This document shows positions 8,616 through 63,790 of a DNA stretch of 64,000 nucleotides, one piece after another. The translations under genes were made by a program, and so were the position numbers. The notes beneath the pieces were generated by a model. It worked only from the letters and a program-made list of their open reading frames with translations. It searched no databases and was not told the origin of the DNA. This stretch comes from a virus, in the IMG/VR virus record IMGVR_UViG_3300047560_000724, positions 1 through 64,000 of that record; one strand, given 5' to 3'. The first letter of the stretch is position 1. Each line of letters starts with the position of its first letter.

Positions 8616-10869
8616 CTTCAGTTATGCTTTCAATTGCAAGTAGCGGAACTTTTGGAGCCTTTGGTTTTGAAATTAATGAAATCTTGTCATCAACTACAGT
8701 AATAGTTAACCAACCACCGTTCTTCAAGTCACCAAATAACATCATACGAGCAAGATCTCGCTTAATTTCTTTATCGATGACTCGTTGTAGAGGACGGGCG
8801 CCCATCTTAGCATCAAAGCCTTTGTCAATAAGCCAGTTAATAGCATCCTTATCAATTTTAATACGGATAGCTTTTTCTTTAACTTGCTCTTTAAGCTCGT
8901 CAATAAACTTCATAACAACCTTAATCATTGTTTCTTTACCTAGCTTGTTAAAGGTAATGATACCATCTAAGCGGTTACGGAACTCTGGGGTAAAGAATTT
9001 ATTAAGTTCTTTGTCGCTATATTGTTTTTGTTGACTACCAAAGCCAATGGCATTTTTATCAGCGTCAGCTGCGCCAGCATTAGTAGTAAGGATAAGAATC
9101 AAATTACGGCAATCTGCTTTCTTACCATTAGACCCTGTTACAAAACCATTATCCATCATCTGCAACAGTACAGTCGACACATCAGGATGTGATTTTTCAA
9201 CCTCGTCAAACAACAGAACAGCGTTTGGATTTTCTTGAATCTGTGTAATCAACAAGCCTGCATTTTCTTCAAAACCAACATAACCTGGAGGGCTACCGAT
9301 TAGCTTAGAGATGCTATGCTTCTCTTGGTATTCTGACATGTCAAAGCGTAGTAGCTTAACACCTAAGTTCTTAGCAAGAGACTTAGCAGTTTCGGTCTTA
9401 CCGCAACCAGTTGGGCCCATGAATACAAATGATCCAATGGGTTTATTTTCAGATTTCAAACCAGCTTGTGCAACAATAATCTTGTCTACCACTTCTTGTA
9501 CAGCAAGATCTTGTCCGTATACTTCGTCTTGAAGTTTTGTTTGTAGAGTTGCAAGGTTATTGCTTTCTGTTTCTGCAACCTGCTCTTCAGGCAAGTTAAT
9601 CATCTTAGCAAGTTCAAACTGGATCTCGCCTTCTCCAACCACACGCTCGTCTGCAAGTTTTAAGTTAAAGCGTGAGCAAGCTAAGTCAATCAAGTCAATA
9701 GCCTTATCCGGCAACTTCTTGTCTGTTTGATATTTGACAGATAATTTAATAGCCGCCTGTAGTGCGTCATCTTTAATTTTTACATTGTGATGACCTTCAT
9801 AGTATTTCTTAATACCTTTAAGGATCTGAAGAGTAACTTCTGTAGTTGGCTCGTCAACAGTAATGCGTTGGAATCGACGCATCAATGCACGATCCTTCTC
9901 AAAGTGCTTGCGATATTCTTCCCAGGTAGTTGACGCTACAACTTTAATGTTGCCTTTGCTTAGTGCAGGCTTCATCATGTTAGCAAGGTCGTTAGCTGAA
10001 TTGCTAGCGGTACCTGCACCAGAGATCATATGCGCTTCGTCAATAAACAAGACAGTTTTGCCTTTCTTCTGAAGTGCTTTAATAACAAGTTTAAAGCGTT
10101 CTTCAAAGTCTCCGCGATACTTACTGCCAGCTAACATAGCACTAATATCTAGGTTATAAACTGTGTAGTCTTTTAAGAAGTCTGGAACCGCACCTTTAAC
10201 AATGTTGTAGGCAAGACCTTCTGCAATCGCAGTCTTACCAACACCCGGATCGCCTACTAAGATCACATTGTTCTTGCTTCTGCGCCCCATTGACAATGCA
10301 ATGTTTTCTAGCTCATCTATACGACCAATCACTGGGTCAATTTTATTCTTCTTAACTTGATCGTTAAGGTTTGTCGTAAATGCGTTTAGTGCTTTGCTAG
10401 AATTACTGTCTTGCGGTTCATCGTCGCCCGCTTCGTCCATGTTGTTGTTAAGGTAATCAGCAAATTTCTCTTTATCAATTTCTGCTTGTGCAATATAAAA
10501 GTGTGCCCAGCTACGCTTCTCGCCCATCATAGCAAGGAACACATCTGTAGGTTCAATGCGTTGACGACCATTGAATAGTACTTGTGTAAATGCACGATTA
10601 AGTACACGCTCGACTGATTGTGTTTTCTTTGGCTTAACTACTACTTCTTGTGTTGTAATTTCGGAACACTTGTGTTGTAAGTAGTCAGCAACATGTTTTT
10701 TTAAGTCATCAGCGTTAGCACCGTATCCTTGAACGCATTTTGTAAATGACTCGTCAAGAAGCATAGCAAATAACAAATGCTCGATGGTTAAGTATTCATG
10801 GTGTAGTTTTTTAGCAGTATCAATTGCTTTTTCAAAAACTGATTGTAAATTGTCGCTTGGTTCAACCAT
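8593..10869 (-). CDS. clpA: ATP-dependent Clp protease ATP-binding subunit ClpA
   Basis: Clp N-domain, two Walker A motifs (GDPGVGKT, GPTGCGKT), IGF ClpP-docking loop, no ClpB middle domain; 758 aa. Confidence 0.92.
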   Translation of the reverse strand: MVEPSDNLQSVFEKAIDTAKKLHHEYLTIEHLLFAMLLDESFTKCVQGYGANADDLKKHVADYLQHKCSEITTQEVVVKPKKTQSVERVLNRAFTQVLFNGRQRIEPTDVFLAMMGEKRSWAHFYIAQAEIDKEKFADYLNNNMDEAGDDEPQDSNSSKALNAFTTNLNDQVKKNKIDPVIGRIDELENIALSMGRRSKNNVILVGDPGVGKTAIAEGLAYNIVKGAVPDFLKDYTVYNLDISAMLAGSKYRGDFEERFKLVIKALQKKGKTVLFIDEAHMISGAGTASNSANDLANMMKPALSKGNIKVVASTTWEEYRKHFEKDRALMRRFQRITVDEPTTEVTLQILKGIKKYYEGHHNVKIKDDALQAAIKLSVKYQTDKKLPDKAIDLIDLACSRFNLKLADERVVGEGEIQFELAKMINLPEEQVAETESNNLATLQTKLQDEVYGQDLAVQEVVDKIIVAQAGLKSENKPIGSFVFMGPTGCGKTETAKSLAKNLGVKLLRFDMSEYQEKHSISKLIGSPPGYVGFEENAGLLITQIQENPNAVLLFDEVEKSHPDVSTVLLQMMDNGFVTGSNGKKADCRNLILILTTNAGAADADKNAIGFGSQQKQYSDKELNKFFTPEFRNRLDGIITFNKLGKETMIKVVMKFIDELKEQVKEKAIRIKIDKDAINWLIDKGFDAKMGARPLQRVIDKEIKRDLARMMLFGDLKNGGWLTITVVDDKISLISKPKAPKVPLLAIESITEDAHQDND

Positions 10870-49119: not shown

Positions 49120-49235
49120 TGGTGTAGATGGTAGGATTCGAACCTACAAAGTCGCCCTGTGGGCTAGACCTGTTCCCTCCGCAACCAGTGGGGGCTGGCT
49201 TTGGAGGAGGTATACCATGTTCCACTCACATCTAC
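49120..49235 (-). ncRNA. tRNA-like RNA (116 nt) with an aberrant, extended anticodon arm
   Basis: Acceptor GTAGATG/CATCTAC-A-CCA, T arm GTAGG-TTCGAAT-CCTAC, no canonical 7-nt anticodon loop; own sigma70 promoter. Confidence 0.75.
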
Positions 49236-49241
49236 CTTTGT

Positions 49242-49270
49242 ATTATATATTCTTTTGGACTCAGTGTCAA
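49242..49270 (-). promoter_or_regulatory. sigma70 promoter for the tRNA-like RNA
   Basis: TTGACA-N17-TATAAT. Confidence 0.75.
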
Positions 49271-49321
49271 CCTGAAATGGCAGAATATTTTTGGCTAATA
49301 ATAATAGCACTAAATAACTTC

Positions 49322-50074
49322 ATGAAATATCCATCTCAAATAATGCCAGGTTTCTCAGAAAGTGTTGTCGATTTTTATAGAGATCGAAATGTAGAGCCAC
49401 GGTTCAGCGGAATTTATGCTCAAGGTATAGACCGTTGGCTATTAGTTGACGGATACGATCCTTGGATGACTTTTGAAACAGCCAAAATTTTATCATCAAA
49501 GTTGCCTGTACTTACATTCTTATTGCCTAATAATATTGGATCAATGACTAATCAAAATTGTATGAACTATTATATTTTTAAGAAGTTACATATCAATACA
49601 GGACGACAGACTCCTACCTTTACAAGGATCTGGGATCCTGCACAGATCAACTACTTAGGTGTTCCAGAAGATTTTAAAAATGAACAAGGTCTTGCAATGT
49701 TAGAAAAGTTACAGGCGTTTGCTAATTTTGTTCATGTTGTAGTGTATGCTGCGTCATGGATGGATGCATCGAGCAACGTAGACAATACACAAGACATAGC
49801 AGAAAGATTTTTACCAGACGGCTGGTCTGACACTATGTTTTCAAATGTTGACCGTTCTCAAACTAAGAACGGAATGGCTACTGAAATTAAAAAAATACTG
49901 TATAATTCTAATACAATTGAAGAAGCAGATTCTGCAATATACAATTTATGGTTAACTCAGTCTGCTGATATACCTTGGCAACGAAATGCCTACTATAAAA
50001 TTCTAGGCCGTGATGTTCCACAAGCCCTTTCTAACTTACCAGGCACTGGTAAATTTACTTATTTCTCAGTATGA
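49322..50074 (+). CDS. Hypothetical protein
   Basis: ORF from MKYPSQ directly after CTAAATA. Confidence 0.6.
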   Translation: MKYPSQIMPGFSESVVDFYRDRNVEPRFSGIYAQGIDRWLLVDGYDPWMTFETAKILSSKLPVLTFLLPNNIGSMTNQNCMNYYIFKKLHINTGRQTPTFTRIWDPAQINYLGVPEDFKNEQGLAMLEKLQAFANFVHVVVYAASWMDASSNVDNTQDIAERFLPDGWSDTMFSNVDRSQTKNGMATEIKKILYNSNTIEEADSAIYNLWLTQSADIPWQRNAYYKILGRDVPQALSNLPGTGKFTYFSV

Positions 50075-51318
50075 TTGATATTAACGACACAATTTATTGG
50101 CACAACATTAGCCTTAACATCGATACCGCAGATATATGGAGTAGTATTAGAGAACAAGCAAGTCCTGCTGGTCAGTTTTACATAGATATTAGTAAACGAA
50201 TTAACCCTGGTAGGTTTGTTACTCGTAACGGCGAATGGAGTTTACCTTGGAAACAAGAACTACTGCCAGGATATGAGATGCCTGTTTACAACCCTAACTA
50301 TTCTAAATCGTTTGATCAAGTGACTAATGAACGGGCAATAGAGATTAAGCAACGAATTACACATGGTGAGAAGTTTGCTGTAATGTTTAGCGGCGGCATT
50401 GACAGTACAGTTATAATGGCTGCACTGATTAAAAATCTAACAGTCGAAGAATTAAAATCAATTACTGTTTGTTGTAGTGTACACACTATGTTAGAAAACC
50501 CTACTTTCTTTGAAAAGTTTATTCACGGAAAGTTTGACACAATTGATTCGAGAACTATCAAGTATGACGACTTGATTGAAAGAGGATTTACTCCTATCAC
50601 AGCAGACGAAGGTGATTGTATCTTTGGAACCATGTTTGGATTAAACATGTATAACAACTTTGAAGTGCTTATCAAAGATTTTTCACCTGATGCAAAAGCA
50701 AATTTAAGAAAAATTAAGTTTGATGTAGCTAATCCAGATGTACATTACAGTAGGTATAAAGATCTTATCATAAAACATTTTGGTATAACAACTGATCCAG
50801 ACTTTGGTCGTTTATTCTACGAGAAGTGTGTTAAGAATGTAGAAACAGCAAGTGTTCCAATTAATAGCTTGCATGATTTCTTTTGGTGGCTAATTTTTAA
50901 TATCAAGTATTTGAACTGTGCTGTTAGAGGTGCATTGTATTTTAATGATAGAATTGATTGGCAAGTGTGCATGAATCGGATTGTTAACTGGTTCGGGCAT
51001 CCGGAATACCAACGATGGTCCATGGCTAATAACAACAATGGTCAGAAGATTAGGAAAACACAGTCAACTTACAAGTGGGCCGCTAGAGAATACATTTACG
51101 ATTTAGATAAAAACGATTGGTATAAGTTTTTTAAAATTAAATTAGAATCGCTGTATCTAGTAGTTAATCAACAGCCGAGACTATTAGATCTCGAAGCAAG
51201 TAAGCGTCCTAATTTTAGAGCAGGACTAACTAAAAATTACAAAATGCTCTACTTGCAAGACCAAGAAACACAAGATTTCTTTAAACATCACCTTGCAAAC
51301 TACCAACAAGACTGGTAA
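50071..51318 (+). CDS. PP-loop ATP pyrophosphatase, asparagine-synthetase-C-like
   Basis: MFSGGIDST and TADEGDCIFG motifs; no glutaminase domain. Confidence 0.7.
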   Translation: MIDINDTIYWHNISLNIDTADIWSSIREQASPAGQFYIDISKRINPGRFVTRNGEWSLPWKQELLPGYEMPVYNPNYSKSFDQVTNERAIEIKQRITHGEKFAVMFSGGIDSTVIMAALIKNLTVEELKSITVCCSVHTMLENPTFFEKFIHGKFDTIDSRTIKYDDLIERGFTPITADEGDCIFGTMFGLNMYNNFEVLIKDFSPDAKANLRKIKFDVANPDVHYSRYKDLIIKHFGITTDPDFGRLFYEKCVKNVETASVPINSLHDFFWWLIFNIKYLNCAVRGALYFNDRIDWQVCMNRIVNWFGHPEYQRWSMANNNNGQKIRKTQSTYKWAAREYIYDLDKNDWYKFFKIKLESLYLVVNQQPRLLDLEASKRPNFRAGLTKNYKMLYLQDQETQDFFKHHLANYQQDW

Positions 51319-51398
51319 GTTAGCCCAAAATCTCCTAACAAATAAATACTAGAGCAAGGAAAAACCCTTGCTAAATTCATTTAAATGGAGAATTAAAC

Positions 51399-52346
51399 AT
51401 GGAAAAAAGACATGTAAAGTGGGTCATTGCCCATGAACCAATTGGTTTATTTTTAAAAGTTGCAGAGCGTTTTGCTAAAGAAGTTAATGAGCAAACTAAC
51501 GGTATGTTCGATATCGAAGTTCTTTCATTATCAGACTATAGTGAAAAATACAATGGCGGCAAGCGAGTTACGAAGAACGATTTGATGGACCTAATAAATA
51601 CCGGTGCTATCGAAATGAGTCATATCTACACAACTTGGTTAGCTGACTATAACAAAGATCTACACGCATTAGATCTACCTTTCTTATTCCAAGATCACGA
51701 TCATGCTGATCGCGTTCTAGAAGGCGAGATTGGTGCTGAGTTACTTGCAGGTGTTTCTAAACAAAGTAACATTAAAGCTATGAGTTTCACATACTCAGGC
51801 GGTTACCGTGTTGTTCCTGCTAACTTTGAAGCAGACACAGTAGAAGCATGGGCTGGCAAGAAAGTTCGTACAAGCCGCAGTCCAGTTGCTGTTGATACAT
51901 TCAAGCTATTAGGCGCACAACCTTTTGAAGGTATTGCACTTGAAGAAATGAATGAAGCAGCAGACGCAGGTATTATCGAAGCTGGTGAATCCACTTATGT
52001 TCGTGTGTTCCCTCTAGATCAATACAAGAGCTTCGAAGTTGTTAACGATACAGCACACAGTCTGTTCCTAACTTCAATCATTGTTAATCAAGACTTCTTT
52101 AAACAATTTGATGCTGAAGTACAAGAAATCTTATCAACAGCTGCATTCAATGCTGCTCGTGCAGAGCGCCGTGAATCAGTTGCCGACATTCCAAACATTC
52201 TAGCACAATGCGAAGAAAAGGGTGTTAAAGTTATTAAGATGGATTCAGCAGAAGAAGCAAAGTTCAAGTCAGTTACTTCTAAAGTATATGACATGTACGC
52301 AGACTACTTCACTCCTGGTCTAGTACAAAAGATTCAGTTACACTAA
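51399..52346 (+). CDS. TRAP transporter substrate-binding protein (DctP family)
   Basis: LDLPFLFQD..HA, G.KVR and E.Y..V motifs; no signal peptide visible. Confidence 0.82.
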   Translation: MEKRHVKWVIAHEPIGLFLKVAERFAKEVNEQTNGMFDIEVLSLSDYSEKYNGGKRVTKNDLMDLINTGAIEMSHIYTTWLADYNKDLHALDLPFLFQDHDHADRVLEGEIGAELLAGVSKQSNIKAMSFTYSGGYRVVPANFEADTVEAWAGKKVRTSRSPVAVDTFKLLGAQPFEGIALEEMNEAADAGIIEAGESTYVRVFPLDQYKSFEVVNDTAHSLFLTSIIVNQDFFKQFDAEVQEILSTAAFNAARAERRESVADIPNILAQCEEKGVKVIKMDSAEEAKFKSVTSKVYDMYADYFTPGLVQKIQLH

Positions 52347-52363
52347 TCTTTACTAGTCAAAAT

Positions 52364-52389
52364 AAAAGGGCTCTTAGGAGCCCTTTTTT
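52364..52389. terminator. Bidirectional intrinsic terminator
   Basis: AAAAGGGCTC-TTAG-GAGCCCTTTTTT between convergent genes. Confidence 0.78.
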
Positions 52390-52401
52390 ATTTGTTAAAC
52401 T

Positions 52402-53319
52402 TTATTTGTTATCTAATTTAACTTTTGATGCAAGTGTTTTCCAGTAGCTAGTATGGAAGGCGAAGAATTTATCTAGCCCGTCATATGTAACTGTTTGCGG
52501 CTCGCAATAGTCAACAGCGTATGCAGCTCGAACAGCATCGGACTTTGCAGCCATAGCAAAGATTTCATGGAACTCTTTACGCTTACTTGCTTCAGTCTTT
52601 ACTGGAATTAGCATATGATGACCGACATTCATGTCAGCAAAGCTCTTATCGAATCCTTGCTTAACTAATGGTTGATATCCGTTAACAACTTTAGAGCCGG
52701 TAATACCTAATACAGTAACCTTACGATCTGATTTAGTATTCTCTTTGCTCCATTGTTCAGCTTCACTAATAAAGCCAATGTGGAAATCAGTTTGACCTGA
52801 GATCATGCTTAACATTGAATCGTTTGTACTCTTAAAAGGTACAATGTTCATATTAGGATACTTTGATTGAAGTTCAATCGCGGCCAAGTGTGTTGTAACA
52901 CCTAAGCCAGAAATGCCTACGCTAACCTTTGCATCACTCTTAACATCCTTCCATGACTTGTATTTTGTACTAGTCACAGCCATCGGTGCCATACAGTGAA
53001 CATATTGCTCTTGGTATTGTGTCAAGTCATAACTTTCATTAGGATAAACTACTGGTCGTACAAAGAATGCAGTGCTATGTGCTAGTATACTGTTTGATTC
53101 TTTTAGTACATGGTTGGCTGCAATGGCACCGCCTGCACCCGGTTTGGTATCAAAAACAAAATTATATTTGTCTTGAATCTTGTTTGCTTCATTAGCAATA
53201 GTACGATGGTAATTTGCTACAGAGTCACCAGGGCCCCATGCGTAATAAATTACGATGTTTTCTTTAGCGATTGCTGTAAGACTTAATGTTGTTAGCAATG
53301 TTGCTAATAATTTTTTCAT
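52402..53319 (-). CDS. Tripartite tricarboxylate transporter substrate-binding protein (TctC/Bug family)
   Basis: Signal peptide; KPGAGGAIAANHV, SGLGVTTHLA and VPFK motifs. Confidence 0.8.
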   Translation of the reverse strand: MKKLLATLLTTLSLTAIAKENIVIYYAWGPGDSVANYHRTIANEANKIQDKYNFVFDTKPGAGGAIAANHVLKESNSILAHSTAFFVRPVVYPNESYDLTQYQEQYVHCMAPMAVTSTKYKSWKDVKSDAKVSVGISGLGVTTHLAAIELQSKYPNMNIVPFKSTNDSMLSMISGQTDFHIGFISEAEQWSKENTKSDRKVTVLGITGSKVVNGYQPLVKQGFDKSFADMNVGHHMLIPVKTEASKRKEFHEIFAMAAKSDAVRAAYAVDYCEPQTVTYDGLDKFFAFHTSYWKTLASKVKLDNK

Positions 53320-53614: not shown

Positions 53615-53639
53615 AAAATAGGCCCCGAAGGGCCTATTT
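53615..53639 (-). terminator. Intrinsic terminator
   Basis: AAATAGGCCC-CGAA-GGGCCTATTT (UUCG loop on minus strand). Confidence 0.75.
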
Positions 53640-54102
53640 ACTGTGCGTACCAAATTTGGCTAAAGCCTTCATCTAAGGTCGGTTCTTCCCATCCGTCAAT
53701 CATTTGATCTACAACATATTTTGGAATATGCTTACCAGGACGACCTGACAACCTTACATCTAACTCATCGCGATTCGGTGTACGGAATACAATAGCAATG
53801 TGTTCGTAATCCGGCAAGGTATTAAACTTTCGGGTACGACTCGCGATAGTGGTACTAGTCTGATCCCAGATTAAATCCAAATTGTTTGCTTGACAAATTA
53901 ATGCTTGATTAACCATTAACTTAACTGCAATTGGCATATAATCTTTAAATACTTCGGAATAAGTTTTACCTTGTTCCTTAGCATAGGCTTCTACAAACGA
54001 ATCTGTACAGACTACAGGCATATCCTTAGCCCAATCTTGATTAGAAATCCAGGTGCTTTTTCCAGCACCCGGAACTCCTACTAGTTGATAACACTTTGGC
54101 AT
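53638..54102 (-). CDS. P-loop kinase (AAA_33 / polynucleotide-kinase-like)
   Basis: GVPGAGKST, DQTS...SR, R..R and PTLDEGF motifs. Confidence 0.8.
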   Translation of the reverse strand: MPKCYQLVGVPGAGKSTWISNQDWAKDMPVVCTDSFVEAYAKEQGKTYSEVFKDYMPIAVKLMVNQALICQANNLDLIWDQTSTTIASRTRKFNTLPDYEHIAIVFRTPNRDELDVRLSGRPGKHIPKYVVDQMIDGWEEPTLDEGFSQIWYAQ

Positions 54103-54110
54103 ACTACTCC

Positions 54111-54716
54111 TTACATCGTTGGGCCGTTGCCCGATCTGAAACCAACAACACCGCCTTCTTCGGCGATACGCTTTAACACATCTTCAAATAAGATAGGTGC
54201 AAAGTCCGGTGTTTGTTCCACACAAACGCAATGGTAGCGTGGATCAATTTCATCACCATATAACACTTCGCCGGTCTTGGCATCAACACCACGAGCTTTC
54301 ATAACACGATTTGCGTGTAAGTGTCCGTGAATGTTAACACCAAAACGACCTAAGCTATCTGCGTGTACAGGAATATGGCTTAAGATCATTCCGTTCATAA
54401 CATGGTATGCTCGTAATTCTCTAAAGTACTGCCTGTACTCGTCATCTCTAAAGATGTCGTGGTTACCACGAATTAAAACCTTATCACCGTTCAAGCGATG
54501 TAACACTTTTAAGGCCTTGCGGTTAATAACAACATCGCCTAAATGGTAAACCTTGTCAGTAGGCTTGACTCTTTCGTTCCAAGCCCTGACCATAGCTTCG
54601 TCCATTTCGTCCGGGTCATCCCACGGCCTTAACTTTGTAAACCCGTCGTTCCGGGTGAAGCGACATACACCTGTGTGACCAAAGTGCGTATCGCTAACTA
54701 AAAATACACTAGGCAT
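54111..54716 (-). CDS. Calcineurin-like phosphoesterase
   Basis: SDTHFGH, HLGD, GNHD and HGHLH motifs. Confidence 0.88.
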   Translation of the reverse strand: MPSVFLVSDTHFGHTGVCRFTRNDGFTKLRPWDDPDEMDEAMVRAWNERVKPTDKVYHLGDVVINRKALKVLHRLNGDKVLIRGNHDIFRDDEYRQYFRELRAYHVMNGMILSHIPVHADSLGRFGVNIHGHLHANRVMKARGVDAKTGEVLYGDEIDPRYHCVCVEQTPDFAPILFEDVLKRIAEEGGVVGFRSGNGPTM

Positions 54717-55213
54717 TATATGTCTCCTTCATAGTTCTTTGGCACAATCAAACCACTGTCTAATTCAATGCCGTTAATCGTATGGGGCTCGTTTTCATCG
54801 TAAGTCCAACCGAGCACCTTCATCATTTTATGCTTGACCATCAAGTTAGGGCTACGAAAAACTTCAGTATCACGGAAGCCCATCATAACTCCAACCTCGC
54901 AGACTGCACCCGAACGGCACACACCTGCAACACAATGCACAACAACATTCATTCGTTGTTCCATTGCATGTTCTAGCAATCGAACAAGTCTTTCGGCTTG
55001 CTCGTCTGTAACCTTAAAGTCGTCGCCCCACTTGTCGTCTTGTTCCAAATCCAAGAACTCAAACTGATGAGTTTCACGGAACTGATGCCTAGGAGTAGGG
55101 AACTCCATAGCAGGGTCAACTATTTGAATGAGCATACTGTTAATGCCCGCATCAATGTGATGGCCTTTTGGAATGTCAGCAAACGAGACATTTTGAATCC
55201 ACGGGGTTAACAT
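54716..55213 (-). CDS. Cys-based (tyrosine/dual-specificity-like) phosphatase
   Basis: HCVAGVCRS CX5R motif. Confidence 0.85.
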   Translation of the reverse strand: MLTPWIQNVSFADIPKGHHIDAGINSMLIQIVDPAMEFPTPRHQFRETHQFEFLDLEQDDKWGDDFKVTDEQAERLVRLLEHAMEQRMNVVVHCVAGVCRSGAVCEVGVMMGFRDTEVFRSPNLMVKHKMMKVLGWTYDENEPHTINGIELDSGLIVPKNYEGDI

Positions 55214-55322: not shown

Positions 55323-56732
55323 TTACAGGTCGTAGCGTGGGACCATTACAGTCTTAAGCATAATACCTTCTGGAGTGAACTGATCAAGATCAGCACTCAA
55401 AAGAGCTGTCATAATGCTTGGGCTGAACCCTGACACCAAAGCAGCTCCTGTCTTGTCTGCCTTAACAGGTACATTGTCTGAACTGTTTAGGTTCCAGAAA
55501 ACAATCTGTGGCATTGCATAGCCAGCGGCTTCGAACTTGCGTTCGATCATTTCCATTGCGCTATCGTCGTAACGGGCGCATTGGTTGAATTGCATGTCTG
55601 ACAAGATTAGTAGCATAGCTGGCATATCGCTAGCAGGAACATTTCCCTTAACTGCTGTGCTTAGGATCTTATCCATAGCGGCATGCAGGTTAGTACTCAT
55701 TTCCCAGTTGCTACGAGACATTTGGTCAACCTTTTCAACAATGTTACCCTTTAGAGTAACAAGTTGTGGCTTGCTTGAGAAAGTCAAGAATGTGTCCTTG
55801 AACGCACCCTTGTTCTTGTCTGCAAGGTACAAGCCTAGGCTTACGGCTACATCAAGACAACGAACACTAGTGTCACGACCTGCTGGGCAAGTCATAGAAC
55901 CAGATACATCAACTAGAGGTAGGATACTTGCGTTGCCTACATAGTTTGGCAGAGCATCCCATTGTGCGATCACATGGTTAGTCTCTGTCTTGTCCAAAGT
56001 CTTGTAGCCGTGTGCGATGCCCTTTAGGACATCATGTGGGAAGATTGCGTTGGCGTTAACCTTAACAGTCTTATCCCCTGCCACCAACTTGGCCACATAC
56101 TCTGCAAACGCAGGTGTGTGACGGTTGAATGCCTTCTTGTATTGGCGAGCCGCTACAGAAGGAACATGGCTAAAGTTGATGTTATCCCAATCTCCTGCAC
56201 ACATTTGGGTTTCAACAACCTTTGTAAGTGCCACAAGGCTCTTACGGTATTGCTTTGGAGTCATGCCAAAGAAGGCACGGATCTCAGCGGCAATCTGACC
56301 CTTACGAGGAGTCCACTTTGCAGCCAAACCGTTCTTAGCACGAAGGGCATCGCCCAACATGGTATAAGCGGCTGACTTCAGAACTGGGTCTGAGAAGACA
56401 AAGATGTCATCCCAACGACCAACTTCTGGAACCTTGCGAAGCAAAGCCAAAGCGGCGTCTGGGTCACGCTTTTCTAGATGAACTAGAATGTCGCGGAACA
56501 GTTGACGCTCACCTGCACCACCACGGACATCTCGTGCCCATTGTGCAATGCGAAGTGCAACATCAGAGTTTTCCACATAGGCTGCAGTGAAGTCAGCCTT
56601 AATATCCTTACCACGGCTTGCGCCGATCTTGTAGAACAAGTCAACACACGCCTTAGCTGTGGACTTACGAGCCTTCATGCCATTGGCAGTACGGGCTTCT
56701 TGATTTGCGATTGCGTTTACAAATGCGTTCAT
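55323..56732 (-). CDS. DUF2828 family protein (Ro60/TROVE-like helical domain plus vWA)
   Basis: RDVRGGAGER, GRWDD, AAKW.PR and VPSVA motifs; vWA MIDAS DVSGSM...LSDMQF...VFWNL...LVSGFSP. Confidence 0.85.
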   Translation of the reverse strand: MNAFVNAIANQEARTANGMKARKSTAKACVDLFYKIGASRGKDIKADFTAAYVENSDVALRIAQWARDVRGGAGERQLFRDILVHLEKRDPDAALALLRKVPEVGRWDDIFVFSDPVLKSAAYTMLGDALRAKNGLAAKWTPRKGQIAAEIRAFFGMTPKQYRKSLVALTKVVETQMCAGDWDNINFSHVPSVAARQYKKAFNRHTPAFAEYVAKLVAGDKTVKVNANAIFPHDVLKGIAHGYKTLDKTETNHVIAQWDALPNYVGNASILPLVDVSGSMTCPAGRDTSVRCLDVAVSLGLYLADKNKGAFKDTFLTFSSKPQLVTLKGNIVEKVDQMSRSNWEMSTNLHAAMDKILSTAVKGNVPASDMPAMLLILSDMQFNQCARYDDSAMEMIERKFEAAGYAMPQIVFWNLNSSDNVPVKADKTGAALVSGFSPSIMTALLSADLDQFTPEGIMLKTVMVPRYDL

Positions 56733-56743
56733 TTTATTACCTC

Positions 56744-56800
56744 ACAGAATGTATTGTTTTTCGATATGCTTGAAAATTGAAAGTTGCTGTTAACATTCTA
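56744..56800 (-). ncRNA. ACAGCAA-stem RNA element 1 (Y-RNA-like candidate)
   Basis: AGAATGT-TA-ACAGCAA...ACATTCT-GT; ends at the DUF2828 RBS. Confidence 0.65.
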
Positions 56801-56807
56801 AAATTCT

Positions 56808-57041
56808 AACAGGATGATTGTGCCAATTTGTTTATTATTCTGGTCTGACCAATTACGGCACTCAGACCCTAACAACAATTCATGTTGTCTATCTTGTATT
56901 GTGTCTGTACAAGCATCATATTACGGATTCTCCGTACCTATCTATTCCTTCGGCGTCTATTTCTAGAAAGCATTTCTGCTTGTCCTCCGACCGCCTTCTA
57001 TAGCTGTAGTCGTAGTAGTTTAAATTGCTGTAGTCATCCTA
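56808..57041 (-). ncRNA. ACAGCAA-stem RNA element 2 (Y-RNA-like candidate)
   Basis: AGGATGA-CT-ACAGCAA...TCATCCT-GT; interior has several hairpins including GAAA tetraloops. Confidence 0.7.
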
Positions 57042-57046
57042 TGACT

Positions 57047-57216
57047 AACAGGATCGTTGTTGACTGCTTTTATTAGACTCAGGCCATCACTCTGAGCTCG
57101 TCCAGGGCATTTCAATAGTTACCTTCAACATACTCGGGCGAACCTCTGTACTCCAATAACTACCATGCACTATCCAGACCTTTCATAGTAATATGAATGT
57201 TGCTGTGCCGATCCTA
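57047..57216 (-). ncRNA. ACAGCAA-stem RNA element 3 (Y-RNA-like candidate)
   Basis: AGGATCG-GC-ACAGCAA...CGATCCT-GT. Confidence 0.7.
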
Positions 57217-61636: not shown

Positions 61637-61732
61637 TACCATATAGAAACACACTAGCGGGCATATCTAGGTTGCCGCTTATCGCACCTTAGTCCTAGTA
61701 CTGAGTATAGGCTAGTGCATTTTTATATGGTA
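61637..61732 (-). repeat. Long-stem cassette A (conserved ~20-bp stem, variable interior)
   Basis: TACCATATAAAAATGCACTAGC...GCTAGTGTGTTTCTATATGGTA. Confidence 0.75.
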
Positions 61733-62555: not shown

Positions 62556-62630
62556 TGGCACCGCGAGTTGGATTCGAACCAACATCTTACACTTTAGAAG
62601 AGTGTTGCCTATCCCTTAGACTATCGCGGT
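62556..62630 (-). tRNA. tRNA-Arg(TCT)
   Basis: Loop CTTCTAA, CCA. Confidence 0.9.
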
Positions 62631-63061: not shown

Positions 63062-63137
63062 TGGGGTGCTAGATGGGGAACGATCCCATACTATCGCTTT
63101 CACAGAGCGAGGTGCAGACCACTACACTACTAACACC
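63062..63137 (-). tRNA. tRNA-His(GTG)
   Basis: Loop CTGTGAA, G-1/C73, CCA. Confidence 0.85.
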
Positions 63138-63145
63138 ATAGAAAA

Positions 63146-63264
63146 AACAGGATACATTTTATAGCGCACTACCAATTGTGCTAACTTGGCATGAAGCCAA
63201 ATGTTGGACTCGAACCAACAACCTCTCGCTTAGAAGGCGAAAATTGTTTGCTGTTAGTATCCTA
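63146..63264 (-). ncRNA. ACAGCAA-stem RNA element 4 enclosing a circularly permuted tRNA-Arg(TCT) (YrlA-like)
   Basis: AGGATAC-TA-ACAGCAA, anticodon arm, T arm, loop-closed acceptor stem, D arm, GTATCCT-GT. Confidence 0.8.
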
Positions 63265-63268
63265 AACT

Positions 63269-63344
63269 TGGAGCGGGAGACGAGGTTCGAACTCGCGACA
63301 TTTACCTTGGCAAGGTAATGCTCTACCAACTGAGCTACTCCCGC
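63269..63344 (-). tRNA. tRNA-Gly(GCC)
   Basis: Loop TTGCCAA, CCA. Confidence 0.93.
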
Positions 63345-63532: not shown

Positions 63533-63607
63533 TGGTGGTGATGAGTAGAGTCGAACTACCACCAGACTCCGTATGAAGGAGGCGCACTACCATTATGCTA
63601 CATCACC
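63533..63607 (-). tRNA. tRNA with CAT anticodon (elongator Met or Ile2)
   Basis: Loop TTCATAC, CCA; identity not resolved by eye. Confidence 0.8.
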
Positions 63608-63700
63608 ATATAGAAACACACTCGTGCCTTTTTCGTCAGAGGAAGGTGGCCTTTCCCAGTACCCGGACTATGTCCGGTGTCGAATATGTTTTCATATGGT
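63605..63700 (-). repeat. Long-stem cassette B
   Basis: ACCATATGAAAACATATTCG...CGAGTGTGTTTCTATATGGT. Confidence 0.75.
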
Positions 63701-63702
63701 AA

Positions 63703-63790
63703 TACCATATAGAAACACACTGGCTTGCAAGACTTCTACTAACCTTTCGATGGATGTCGCAGTTAGTATTCAATGTGTTTTTATATGGTA
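63703..63790 (-). repeat. Long-stem cassette C
   Basis: TACCATATAAAAACACATTG...CAGTGTGTTTCTATATGGTA. Confidence 0.75.

What the first reader, a model, noticed from the sequence alone, without database searches (positions are those of the whole stretch)
63146..63264. Complete circularly permuted tRNA-Arg(UCU) carried inside the ACAGCAA stem
Seen on the minus strand, in order: AGGATAC-TA-ACAGCAA-ACAATT; anticodon arm TTCGC-CTTCTAA-GCGAG; variable AGGTT; T arm GTTGG-TTCGAGT-CCAAC; acceptor 3' strand ATTTGGC; loop TTCAT; acceptor 5' strand GCCAAGT; U8-A9; D arm GCAC-AATTGGTA-GTGC; G26; linker; GTATCCT. All tRNA parts are present but opened between positions 26 and 27, with the acceptor end sealed and no CCA. 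The T stem and anticodon loop match the normal tRNA-Arg(TCT) at 62556-62630. Known: bacterial YrlA Y RNAs have this T-before-D, closed-acceptor layout, but there the Ro-binding stem replaces the anticodon arm. Here an intact anticodon arm is kept. Inference: a non-chargeable tRNA mimic, such as a decoy for anticodon nucleases, or a precursor matured by ligation and re-cutting. It independently supports the Y-RNA reading of the motif family.
Basis: partly seen in the sequence, partly recalled or inferred. Interest (0 to 1): 0.88.

Follow-up and report, generated by a model that had tools for sequence, protein, structure and literature searches.

The report
Handle-tagged permuted tRNA-Arg mimic in phage
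A 119-base RNA gene in a freshwater phage's tRNA cluster encodes every part of a tRNA-Arg(UCU), rearranged so that the acceptor end is sealed and the RNA's own ends form a conserved "handle". That handle marks the likely partner RNAs of the phage's Ro60-shaped protein, so this is most likely a Y-RNA-like tRNA mimic and not a working tRNA.

Summary
On the minus strand, 63146-63264 reads: 7-bp closing stem, ACAGCAA, a 5-bp/7-nt anticodon-type hairpin (CUUCUAA), AGGUU, T arm, a 7-bp acceptor closed by 5 nt, U8-A9, D arm, G26, linker, closing stem.

- **tRNA test:** rejoined in canonical order it is called tRNA-Arg(tct). In native order it is not called.
- **Family:** it belongs to a large phage RNA family with the same handle and a T-acceptor-D core, and four helices covary. 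13 of 35 long-spacer members carry a correctly placed anticodon-like arm (0.7 expected), with many different anticodons. Close relatives with the same stem have another arm or none.
- **Arm alone:** handle RNAs that carry only an anticodon hairpin also exist, one of them in this genome (Lys-UUU).
- **Partner:** a DUF2828+vWA protein 6.4 kb downstream, whose model matches only Ro60 structures over its full length.
- **Classification:** it works like YrlA but fails YrlA membership (28 bits against 69; no GNCGAA motif). It lacks A20, and the phage has a normal tRNA-Arg(UCU). Maturation into a decoding tRNA is therefore unlikely.
- **Function:** a role as decoy, bait or repair platform is inferred, not shown.
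- **Prior notes:** this scan has noted the family before in more than 200 other genomes. I found no published description.

The parts
63257..63264 (-). P1 5' strand (U)AGGAUAC of the closing stem (handle)
   Evidence: Pairs with 63148-63155. 42 of 50 family members have a perfect 7-bp P1 with differing sequences.
63248..63254 (-). Invariant ACAGCAA handle motif, predicted mostly unpaired
   Evidence: Invariant in alignment A2. With the preceding AC-TA it fits the conserved positions T3, C6, C9, A10, A11 of the Dictyostelium Class I 11-nt motif.
63225..63241 (-). Anticodon-arm look-alike UUCGC-CUUCUAA-GCGAG (C32, U33, UCU, A37, A38)
   Evidence: Recurs at the same position in 13 of 35 relatives against 0.7 expected. 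All 5 pairs covary.
63220..63224 (-). Variable-loop look-alike AGGUU (U48 opposite A15)
   Evidence: Family-wide 15-48 covariation: A15-U48 16, G15-C48 9.
63203..63219 (-). T arm GUUGG-UUCGAGU-CCAAC
63184..63202 (-). Sealed 7-bp acceptor stem AUUUGGC-UUCAU-GCCAAGU, no CCA
   Evidence: All 7 pairs covary. A natural variant in run X3 keeps pairing.
63165..63183 (-). U8-A9, D arm GCAC-AAUUGGUA-GUGC, G26 (U20, not A20)
   Evidence: (YrlA model positions 24-84).
63146..63164 (-). 3' linker CUAUAAAAU, P1 3' strand GUAUCCU, tail GUU followed by a U run
   Evidence: The tail CUGU(U) is shared by relatives.
55323..56732 (-). Probable protein partner: DUF2828 + DUF7788 (vWA with MIDAS) protein, 469 aa, Ro60 fold
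   Evidence: Pfam. DxSGS/T/D invariant. AF2 pLDDT 81.7. The 12 best Foldseek hits shown are all Ro60/TROVE over the full length.
56746..57216 (-). Three further handle RNAs without a tRNA module, directly upstream of the DUF2828 gene (57049-57216, 56810-57041, about 56746-56800)
53638..55213 (-). Downstream same-strand genes: dual-specificity phosphatase, metallophosphoesterase, P-loop kinase (AAA_33), typical RNA-end-healing activities

Best explanation
The element is one of at least seven handle-tagged small RNAs of this phage. Its 5' and 3' ends pair into a 7-8 bp stem that, with the adjacent single-stranded ACAGCAA and the 3' CUGU, forms a conserved handle. By analogy with Y RNAs on Ro60, this handle is the binding site of the phage's Ro60-fold DUF2828/vWA protein (inferred). 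The cargo held by the handle is a complete tRNA look-alike. Topologically it is a tRNA opened at the 26/27 junction, where the handle is attached, with a sealed acceptor end. It sits 4 nt after tRNA-Gly and about 10 nt before tRNA-His, so the enzymes that process its tRNA neighbours probably release it from the tRNA operon transcript (inferred). The body (D arm, T arm) is generic to the family. The anticodon arm is a swappable module that differs between close relatives. I think the particle most likely displays a tRNA-Arg(UCU)-shaped bait to proteins that recognise tRNA anticodon arms, such as anticodon nucleases of host defence or tRNA repair and modification enzymes. This would either soak them up or bring them to the Ro60-like ring and the neighbouring end-healing enzymes. 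It is not a decoding tRNA.
For: Structure and rejoining test. Family with the same architecture: 50 distinct elements, with covariation in all four cargo helices (94.8% paired, 17 of 21 pairs with double changes, 0 of 500 shuffles). The anticodon-arm geometry is non-random: 13 of 35 against 0.7 expected; loop Y32 12/14, U33 13/14, A37 13/14, A38 12/14. The arm can be the only cargo: the Lys-UUU hairpin RNA at genome 64050-64114, and 15 of 54 short handle RNAs against 1.2 expected, including another UCU arm in L045. Partner: Ro60 fold, and a homolog in 39 of 231 loci, in 16 of the 47 element-bearing loci, in about ten of those within roughly 0.2-1 kb of an element. A non-permuted version, with the handle hairpin inserted at 26/27 of a tRNA that has a free NCCA end, lies next to the same gene in Cronobacter phage S13 and Citrobacter phage Ci1. 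Not a real tRNA-Arg: U20 where all three genuine phage tRNA-Arg have A20; no special similarity to tRNA-Arg(tct); and a normal tRNA-Arg(tct) is present. End-healing genes lie beside the partner gene.
Against: No binding, expression or processing data exist for this RNA, and the RNA-library contigs were inconclusive. The element is 6.4 kb from the DUF2828 gene, not adjacent. The arm is absent or different in the closest relatives (L230, L152, L114), so it may be dispensable. No RNA ligase, RtcB or CCA-adding enzyme was found in the 80-kb fragment. The bait or decoy function is pure inference. KVP40 has the protein but no such element.
Confidence: 0.72

Rival explanations
1. Split tRNA made by RNase P. 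The 7-bp acceptor hairpin is cut 5' of G1 by RNase P, the 3' overhang is trimmed and CCA is added. The two halves stay together through the acceptor stem and P1. The product is a two-piece, handle-bearing tRNA-like RNA that may even be aminoacylated.
For: M. smegmatis YrlA, the one YrlA with a 7-bp acceptor stem, is cut by RNase P in vitro and in vivo and gains CCA, and both halves remain on Rsr (Chen 2014). This element also has a 7-bp acceptor. The S13 and Ci1 relatives have the open-acceptor topology with an encoded NCCA.
Against: The loop is only 5 nt. There are no data here. For Arg charging it lacks A20, and the discriminator would be U (ArgRS identity from general knowledge). This reading is compatible with the best explanation and is not exclusive of it.
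Confidence: 0.25
2. True permuted tRNA gene. The transcript is circularised or ligated at 26/27, the handle is removed, the acceptor loop is opened, and a normal tRNA-Arg(UCU) results, as for the permuted tRNA genes of red algae.
For: All tRNA parts are present, and the rejoined sequence is called tRNA-Arg.
Against: The handle is conserved on RNAs with non-tRNA cargo, so it is a functional module and not a splice signal. P1 with 15-nt and 9-nt linkers is not a bulge-helix-bulge motif. A normal tRNA-Arg(tct) already exists. The body is family-generic and lacks A20. Close relatives have no arm. No ligase was found.
Confidence: 0.03
3. Decayed remnant of two neighbouring or duplicated tRNA genes (3' part of one, 5' part of the next), with no function of its own.
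For: The YrlA model also scores 24.8 bits on the junction of tRNA-Asp and tRNA-Gly. This shows that tandem tRNAs can imitate the T-before-D order.
Against: The two acceptor strands pair 7 of 7, and a 7-bp outer stem closes the whole. The same architecture recurs with compensatory changes in dozens of contigs. A natural variant keeps pairing.
Confidence: 0.02
4. The tRNA-like fold only stabilises the RNA against nucleases, as Chen et al. proposed for YrlA. The anticodon-like hairpin would then be an ordinary V stem-loop whose resemblance to an anticodon arm has no target.
For: YrlA commonly has a variable V stem-loop at this position. The arm is labile between relatives.
Against: Loop length and the identities at positions 32, 33, 37 and 38, plus the 5-nt spacer, are far more tRNA-like than chance allows. 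Anticodon hairpins also occur as the sole cargo, where they cannot be serving a tRNA fold.
Confidence: 0.15

Closest known systems
YrlA-type bacterial and phage Y RNAs bound by Ro60/Rsr (Rfam RF02553; Chen et al. 2014, PMC4201824)
   Same: The ends pair in a stem that carries the protein-binding site. The internal tRNA-like module has the order (V)-T arm-closed acceptor stem-D arm. There is Levitt 15-48 covariation. The RNA is encoded on the same strand as a ring-shaped Ro60-fold + vWA protein, and several different RNAs share one protein-binding module.
   Different: The handle is P1 + ACAGCAA + CUGU instead of GNCGAAN0-1G. The partner is DUF2828/DUF7788, which the TROVE Pfam model does not detect. 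The score is 28.3 bits against a gathering score of 69. The V-position hairpin has full anticodon-arm geometry followed by a 5-nt variable loop, so the mimic is a whole tRNA.
Thermus phage phiLo Ro60 with Yrl1/Yrl2 (PMC12135203; PDB 9KOP, 9L5Y)
   Same: A phage-encoded Ro60-fold protein with phage-encoded partner RNAs. It is the best structural match of the DUF2828 model.
   Different: The phiLo RNAs were defined by a CGAA motif in a stem-bulge-stem, and the term tRNA-like does not occur in the paper's main text. Sequence identity between the proteins is only about 16%.
Dictyostelium Class I RNAs (Kjellin et al. 2021, PMC7919456)
   Same: A short stem joins the 5' and 3' ends. An unpaired 11-nt motif lies next to the 5' strand, and its conserved positions (T3, C6, C9, A10, A11) all fit AC-UA-ACAGCAA here. 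There is a 3' CUGU whose C pairs with a 5' G, and a variable interior.
   Different: Class I RNAs are eukaryotic, 42-65 nt, have no tRNA-like cargo described, and their known binder is an RRM protein. The full motif sequence is recalled from memory, because the paper's text gives only the positions. Common descent is untested.
Circularly permuted tRNA genes of Cyanidioschyzon merolae and other algae (Soma et al. 2007; recalled, not read here)
   Same: The 3' half lies upstream of the 5' half, and the acceptor strands are joined by a short intervening sequence.
   Different: Those genes are matured through a circular intermediate, using a bulge-helix-bulge motif and the splicing endonuclease, into working tRNAs. 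Here the ends form a conserved protein handle, the breakpoint is 26/27, and a working product is unlikely.

Membership tests
YrlA (Rfam RF02553) | Scores at or above the family's gathering score (69 bits) | tested here: not met
   28.3 bits, model positions 24-84 only. A tRNA-Asp/tRNA-Gly junction scores 24.8.
YrlA (Rfam RF02553) | GNCGAAN0-1G Ro-binding motif near the 5' end | tested here: not met
   No such motif in 63146-63264. ACAGCAA occupies that place.
YrlA (Rfam RF02553) | T arm, closed acceptor-like stem and D arm in that order, with 15-48 covariation | tested here: met
YrlA (Rfam RF02553) | Encoded within about 4 kb of a TROVE-domain Ro60 ortholog on the same strand | tested here: inconclusive
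   Same strand, but 6.4 kb away. The protein is DUF2828, with no TROVE Pfam hit but a Ro60 fold. In L230, the closest relative found, the corresponding element lies 264 nt upstream of the gene.
Y RNA in the functional sense (RNA bound by a Ro60-type ring) | Physical binding to the Ro60-type protein | not testable with these tools
   Only gene adjacency and fold similarity.
Functional tRNA-Arg | Canonical gene order with a free acceptor end | tested here: not met
   ARAGORN finds nothing in the native order. The tRNA model scores 26.7 bits (below 29) only by borrowing the upstream CCA-AGUU and skipping the D arm.
Functional tRNA-Arg | A20 in the D loop (major ArgRS identity element; general knowledge) | tested here: not met
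   The element has GGUA (U20). All three genuine phage tRNA-Arg have GGAUA.
Permuted tRNA genes (algal type) | 3' half upstream of 5' half, rejoinable into a full cloverleaf | tested here: met
Permuted tRNA genes (algal type) | Bulge-helix-bulge motif at the termini for circularisation | tested here: not met
   The termini form a plain 7-8 bp helix with 15-nt and 9-nt single-stranded linkers. The same helix + ACAGCAA closes RNAs with non-tRNA cargo.
Dictyostelium Class I RNA | End-joining stem, 11-nt motif with T3, C6, C9, A10, A11, and 3' CUGU | tested here: met
   Sequence compared with the description in PMC7919456. No Rfam match of that kind was seen.
Dictyostelium Class I RNA | Dictyostelid origin with the DUSE promoter; length 42-65 nt | tested here: not met
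   Phage tRNA operon; 119 nt.

The most novel reading that the evidence does not exclude
Phages use a Ro60-like ring plus interchangeable handle-tagged tRNA and anticodon-arm mimics as a programmable counter-defence or repair particle. Each anticodon cargo (here Arg-UCU, Ser-UGA-like and Lys-UUU in one genome) would be matched to a host anticodon nuclease or tRNA-targeting toxin, which it traps or whose damage it helps repair. The same handle in Dictyostelium Class I RNAs would then point to an ancient, cross-kingdom RNP.
Probability: 0.22. Interest if true: 0.9.

Novelty: new variant of a known kind. Interest (0 to 1): 0.72.

Why it matters
Y RNAs with tRNA-like domains are known, but what the tRNA mimicry is for is still open. 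This family shows the mimicry carried to completeness, with a full anticodon arm and rapidly changing anticodons, and it also shows the arm displayed alone on the same handle. That points to the anticodon arm as the working part. It makes the question testable in culturable phages that carry the same gene and RNAs, such as Cronobacter phage S13 and Citrobacter phage Ci1. It also bears on genome annotation: these RNAs are currently unannotated or labelled tRNA-OTHER or pseudo-tRNA.

Tried and rejected
- **ARAGORN with a free cut point:** I used it as a family-wide test of tRNA-likeness, but it also called 427 of 620 shuffled spacers, so I discarded it. I replaced it with a strict positional test.
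- **Megablast of the region against isolated phages:** no match.
- **TROVE Pfam model on the genome:** no hit. Sequence search of the protein against PDB found nothing relevant. The single-sequence AF2 model was unusable (pLDDT 43.8).
- **KVP40:** it has the protein, but its only pattern match lies inside gene 44, a chance hit.
- **RtcB, RNA_ligase and PolyA_pol searches of the 80-kb record:** no hits, uninformative for a record that is 21% complete.
- **Read laying:** RNA-library contigs gave low and patchy cover over 63170-63223, so nothing can be said about expression or RNA ends. The joints at 63158/63246 are cross-mapping of the paralogous handle RNA at genome 65161-65223.
- **CCAAGUU upstream of the element** (used by the tRNA model hit): I considered it as a duplication footprint and rejected it. 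It is the CCA end of tRNA-Gly plus the usual A(G)UUU(U) spacer, also seen in L115.
- **Derivation from the phage tRNA-Arg(tct):** not supported.

Full report
**Context.** The window is part of an 80.6-kb IMG/VR virus record, estimated 21% complete, so probably a very large phage. Sequencing runs that hold the stretch are freshwater metagenomes. The minus strand between 57308 and 63937 carries 28 tRNA genes. The finding lies between tRNA-Gly(gcc) (63269-63344) and tRNA-His (63062-63136).

**Observation.**
- An unconstrained RNA fold of 63140-63268 gives an outer 8-bp stem enclosing four hairpins: a 5-bp/7-nt hairpin, the T arm, a 7-bp acceptor closed by 5 nt, and the D arm. Energy is -36.2 kcal/mol, z = -3.05, and no shuffle of 200 folds as well.
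- ARAGORN finds no tRNA in the native order. When the 26-nt 5' half is placed in front of the 47-nt 3' half, it calls a 73-nt tRNA-Arg(tct) with a regular cloverleaf.
- Rfam models see the two halves separately. YrlA matches positions 24-84 (T arm, closed acceptor, D arm) at 28.3 bits, against a gathering score of 69.
- The tRNA model reaches 26.7 bits only by borrowing the CCA-AGUU that follows tRNA-Gly as a 5' acceptor strand and skipping the D arm.
- As a caution, the YrlA model also gives 24.8 bits to the junction of tRNA-Asp and tRNA-Gly. That score alone proves little.

**Not an artefact, not a relic.**
- A contig from an independent freshwater DNA run covers 63154-63242 in the same order. 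Its only two differences turn acceptor pairs A5-U68 and G6-U67 into G-U and A-U, so pairing is kept.
42 of them have a perfect 7-bp outer stem of differing sequence.
- On an alignment of 11 such elements (A2), the four cargo helices are 94.8% paired. 17 of 21 pairs show changes on both sides, and no shuffle of 500 or slid register comes close.
- The elements were chosen partly by pairing. The percentage is therefore inflated for helices 1 and 3, but the double changes are not.
- Position 15 of the D loop covaries with the base before the T stem (A-U 16, G-C 9), as Chen et al. reported for YrlA.

**Is the hairpin an anticodon arm?** Chen et al. [quoted passage not shown] The new feature is its geometry.
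- Among 35 family members with a spacer long enough, 14 have a 5-bp (at least 4 paired) stem with a 7-nt loop placed exactly 4-5 nt before the T stem.
- 13 of these have U33 and a purine at 37. Shuffled spacers give 0.7 on average and at most 4 in 2000 trials.
- Loop positions read Y32 12/14, U33 13/14, A37 13/14, A38 12/14.
- The anticodons differ: UCU here; GAU, UGA, UUU, GAA, GCU, UGU, GUC, GUU and UGG elsewhere. One GUU case, L129, is probably an ordinary tRNA.
- The arm is evolutionarily labile. Among elements with the same AGGAUAC stem, L149 has a GAU arm and L152 and L114 have short hairpins with (AU)AAAC loops. L230, the closest relative found (partner protein 80% identical), has no clear arm and a longer acceptor stem.

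**Anticodon arms as cargo.**
- Just beyond the window, the same genome has a 65-nt handle RNA whose only structure is UUUGA-CUUUUAA-UCAAA, a Lys-UUU look-alike.
- It also has a second tRNA-like handle RNA with a UGA-type arm. This confirms two notes by other first readers.
- Across all fetched loci I found 145 distinct handle RNAs. 69 contain a T loop.
- Of 54 short ones without a T loop, 15 carry a perfect 5-bp/7-nt Y32-U33-R37 hairpin, against 1.2 expected and at most 6 in 500 shuffles. UUU is the commonest, and one (L045) is again UCU.

**Topology.** In Cronobacter phage S13 and Citrobacter phage Ci1, RNAs sit next to the homologous gene, annotated as a 121-nt tRNA-Ser (S13), tRNA-OTHER, or pseudo-tRNA. 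They have the normal order: acceptor 5' strand, D arm, a closed hairpin followed by UAUUCAGCA, an anticodon-like arm in the second RNA of each phage (UCC in S13, UUC in Ci1), variable loop, T arm, acceptor 3' strand, NCCA. This is the exact circular permutation of the window's element. In both forms the handle is attached at the 26/27 junction.

**Partner protein.**
- The ORF at 55323-56732, on the same strand, is DUF2828 + DUF7788. Homologs conserve a vWA MIDAS signature.
- With a 26-sequence alignment, AlphaFold gives pLDDT 81.7.
- The twelve best Foldseek hits shown in the PDB are all Ro60/TROVE proteins aligned over their full length. They include Thermus phage phiLo Ro60, Xenopus and human Ro60 and D. 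radiodurans Rsr (E 5.6e-9 to 4e-6, TM 0.40-0.61). Isolated vWA domains follow.
- The TROVE Pfam model itself does not detect the protein.
- Three handle RNAs without tRNA modules lie directly upstream of the gene.
- A homolog is present in 39 of 231 fetched loci, and in 16 of the 47 loci that carry a closed-acceptor element; in about ten of these it lies within roughly 0.2-1 kb of an element. It also occurs in 711 isolated phage records, where RefSeq calls it RNA-binding protein.
- Downstream are a dual-specificity phosphatase, a metallophosphoesterase and a P-loop kinase, activities typical of RNA end healing. No ligase or CCA-adding enzyme was found in this fragment.

**Not a working tRNA-Arg.**
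- The phage has a normal tRNA-Arg(tct).
- The rejoined element is no closer to it than to other tRNAs: best identity is 0.67 to Ser, Leu and Ile, and tRNA-Arg(tct) is not among the eight closest.
- Its D and T arms are the generic ones of the family.
- It has U20, whereas all three genuine phage tRNA-Arg have A20. A20 is the main ArgRS identity element (general knowledge).
- The handle also closes RNAs with unrelated cargo, so it is a functional module, not a splice signal. It does not form a bulge-helix-bulge.

**Mechanism.**
- Shown: the sequence, the fold prediction, family-wide covariation, the non-random anticodon-arm geometry, both topologies, the Ro60 fold of the neighbouring protein, and the gene-RNA association.
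- Inferred: the protein binds the handle; the RNA is released from the tRNA operon transcript by the enzymes that process its tRNA neighbours; and the particle presents a tRNA-Arg(UCU)-shaped bait to anticodon-directed proteins. The bait would act as a decoy or as a way to bring such proteins to the ring and the end-healing enzymes.
- The M. smegmatis precedent (a 7-bp acceptor is cut by RNase P, CCA is added, and both halves stay on Rsr) makes RNase P opening of the acceptor loop a realistic extra step.

**Comparison and novelty.**
- The element works like YrlA but fails its membership tests (score, Ro-binding motif, TROVE partner).
- It resembles the algal permuted tRNA genes in gene order only.
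- Its handle fits the published description of Dictyostelium Class I RNAs. That lead came from earlier notes of this scan.
- I found no paper describing the ACAGCAA handle RNAs or an RNA partner of DUF2828. Iyer et al. 2021 mention only that some jumbo phages have a ROT/TROVE protein with a tRNA-like partner.
- This scan has noted the same family in more than 200 other genomes. One earlier follow-up describes a permuted tRNA-Thr of the same design.
- I rate it a new variant of a known kind: a Ro60/Y-RNA-type particle with a new handle, a divergent partner, and a complete tRNA as cargo.

Noticed in passing
genome G000:C1 64050-64114 (L232, minus strand), 50 nt beyond the window end: A 65-nt handle RNA (P1 AGGAUGU) whose only cargo is UUUGA-CUUUUAA-UCAAA, a Lys-UUU anticodon stem-loop look-alike.
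   Followed up: yes
genome G000:C1 64199-64318 and 65161-65223 (L232, minus strand): A second tRNA-like handle RNA (P1 AGGAUAG; UGA-type arm with 4 of 5 bp; short 4-bp acceptor with a GAAA loop), and a third RNA that reuses P1 AGGAUAC with poorly structured cargo. Contigs matching the latter's cargo, exactly in X16, occur in RNA-library runs X15 and X16.
   Followed up: partly
L236 9896-10138 (Cronobacter phage S13, NC_028773) and L237 about 9893-10125 (Citrobacter phage Ci1, OR515478): RNAs annotated as a 121-nt tRNA-Ser (S13), tRNA-OTHER or pseudo-tRNA, just downstream of the DUF2828 gene. They are non-permuted versions: a tRNA with a handle hairpin (CAAACU-GAYA-AGUUUG + UAUUCAGCA) inserted at 26/27, a free NCCA end, and UCC or UUC anticodon-like arms in the second RNA of each phage. 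S13 also has a permuted-type handle at 10154-10288.
   Followed up: partly
window 61637-61732, 63605-63700, 63703-63790 (minus strand): Three other intergenic cassettes in the tRNA array end in the same GUGUGUUUCUAUAUGGU-type 3' arm, with unrelated interiors. This is a different repeat family from the ACAGCAA handle.
   Followed up: no
alignment A2 and the short handle RNAs: Position 36 of the anticodon-like loops is U in 9 of 14 tRNA-like members and in most short ones (UUU, CUU, UCU, UGU, GCU, GAU, GUU), always followed by A37. These are the anticodons of ANN-decoding tRNAs, which normally carry t6A37. A recurrent A-C mismatch sits at stem pair 28-42 in several members.
   Followed up: no
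window 49217-53319: Beside the RNA-repair-like genes, the phage carries DctP- and TctC-type periplasmic solute-binding protein genes. This is unusual cargo for a phage.
   Followed up: no
window 63141-63148: The outer stem is followed by GUUUUUUC, a terminator-like or U-tail feature 5 nt before tRNA-His. Relatives also have U-rich tails after CCUGU.
   Followed up: no
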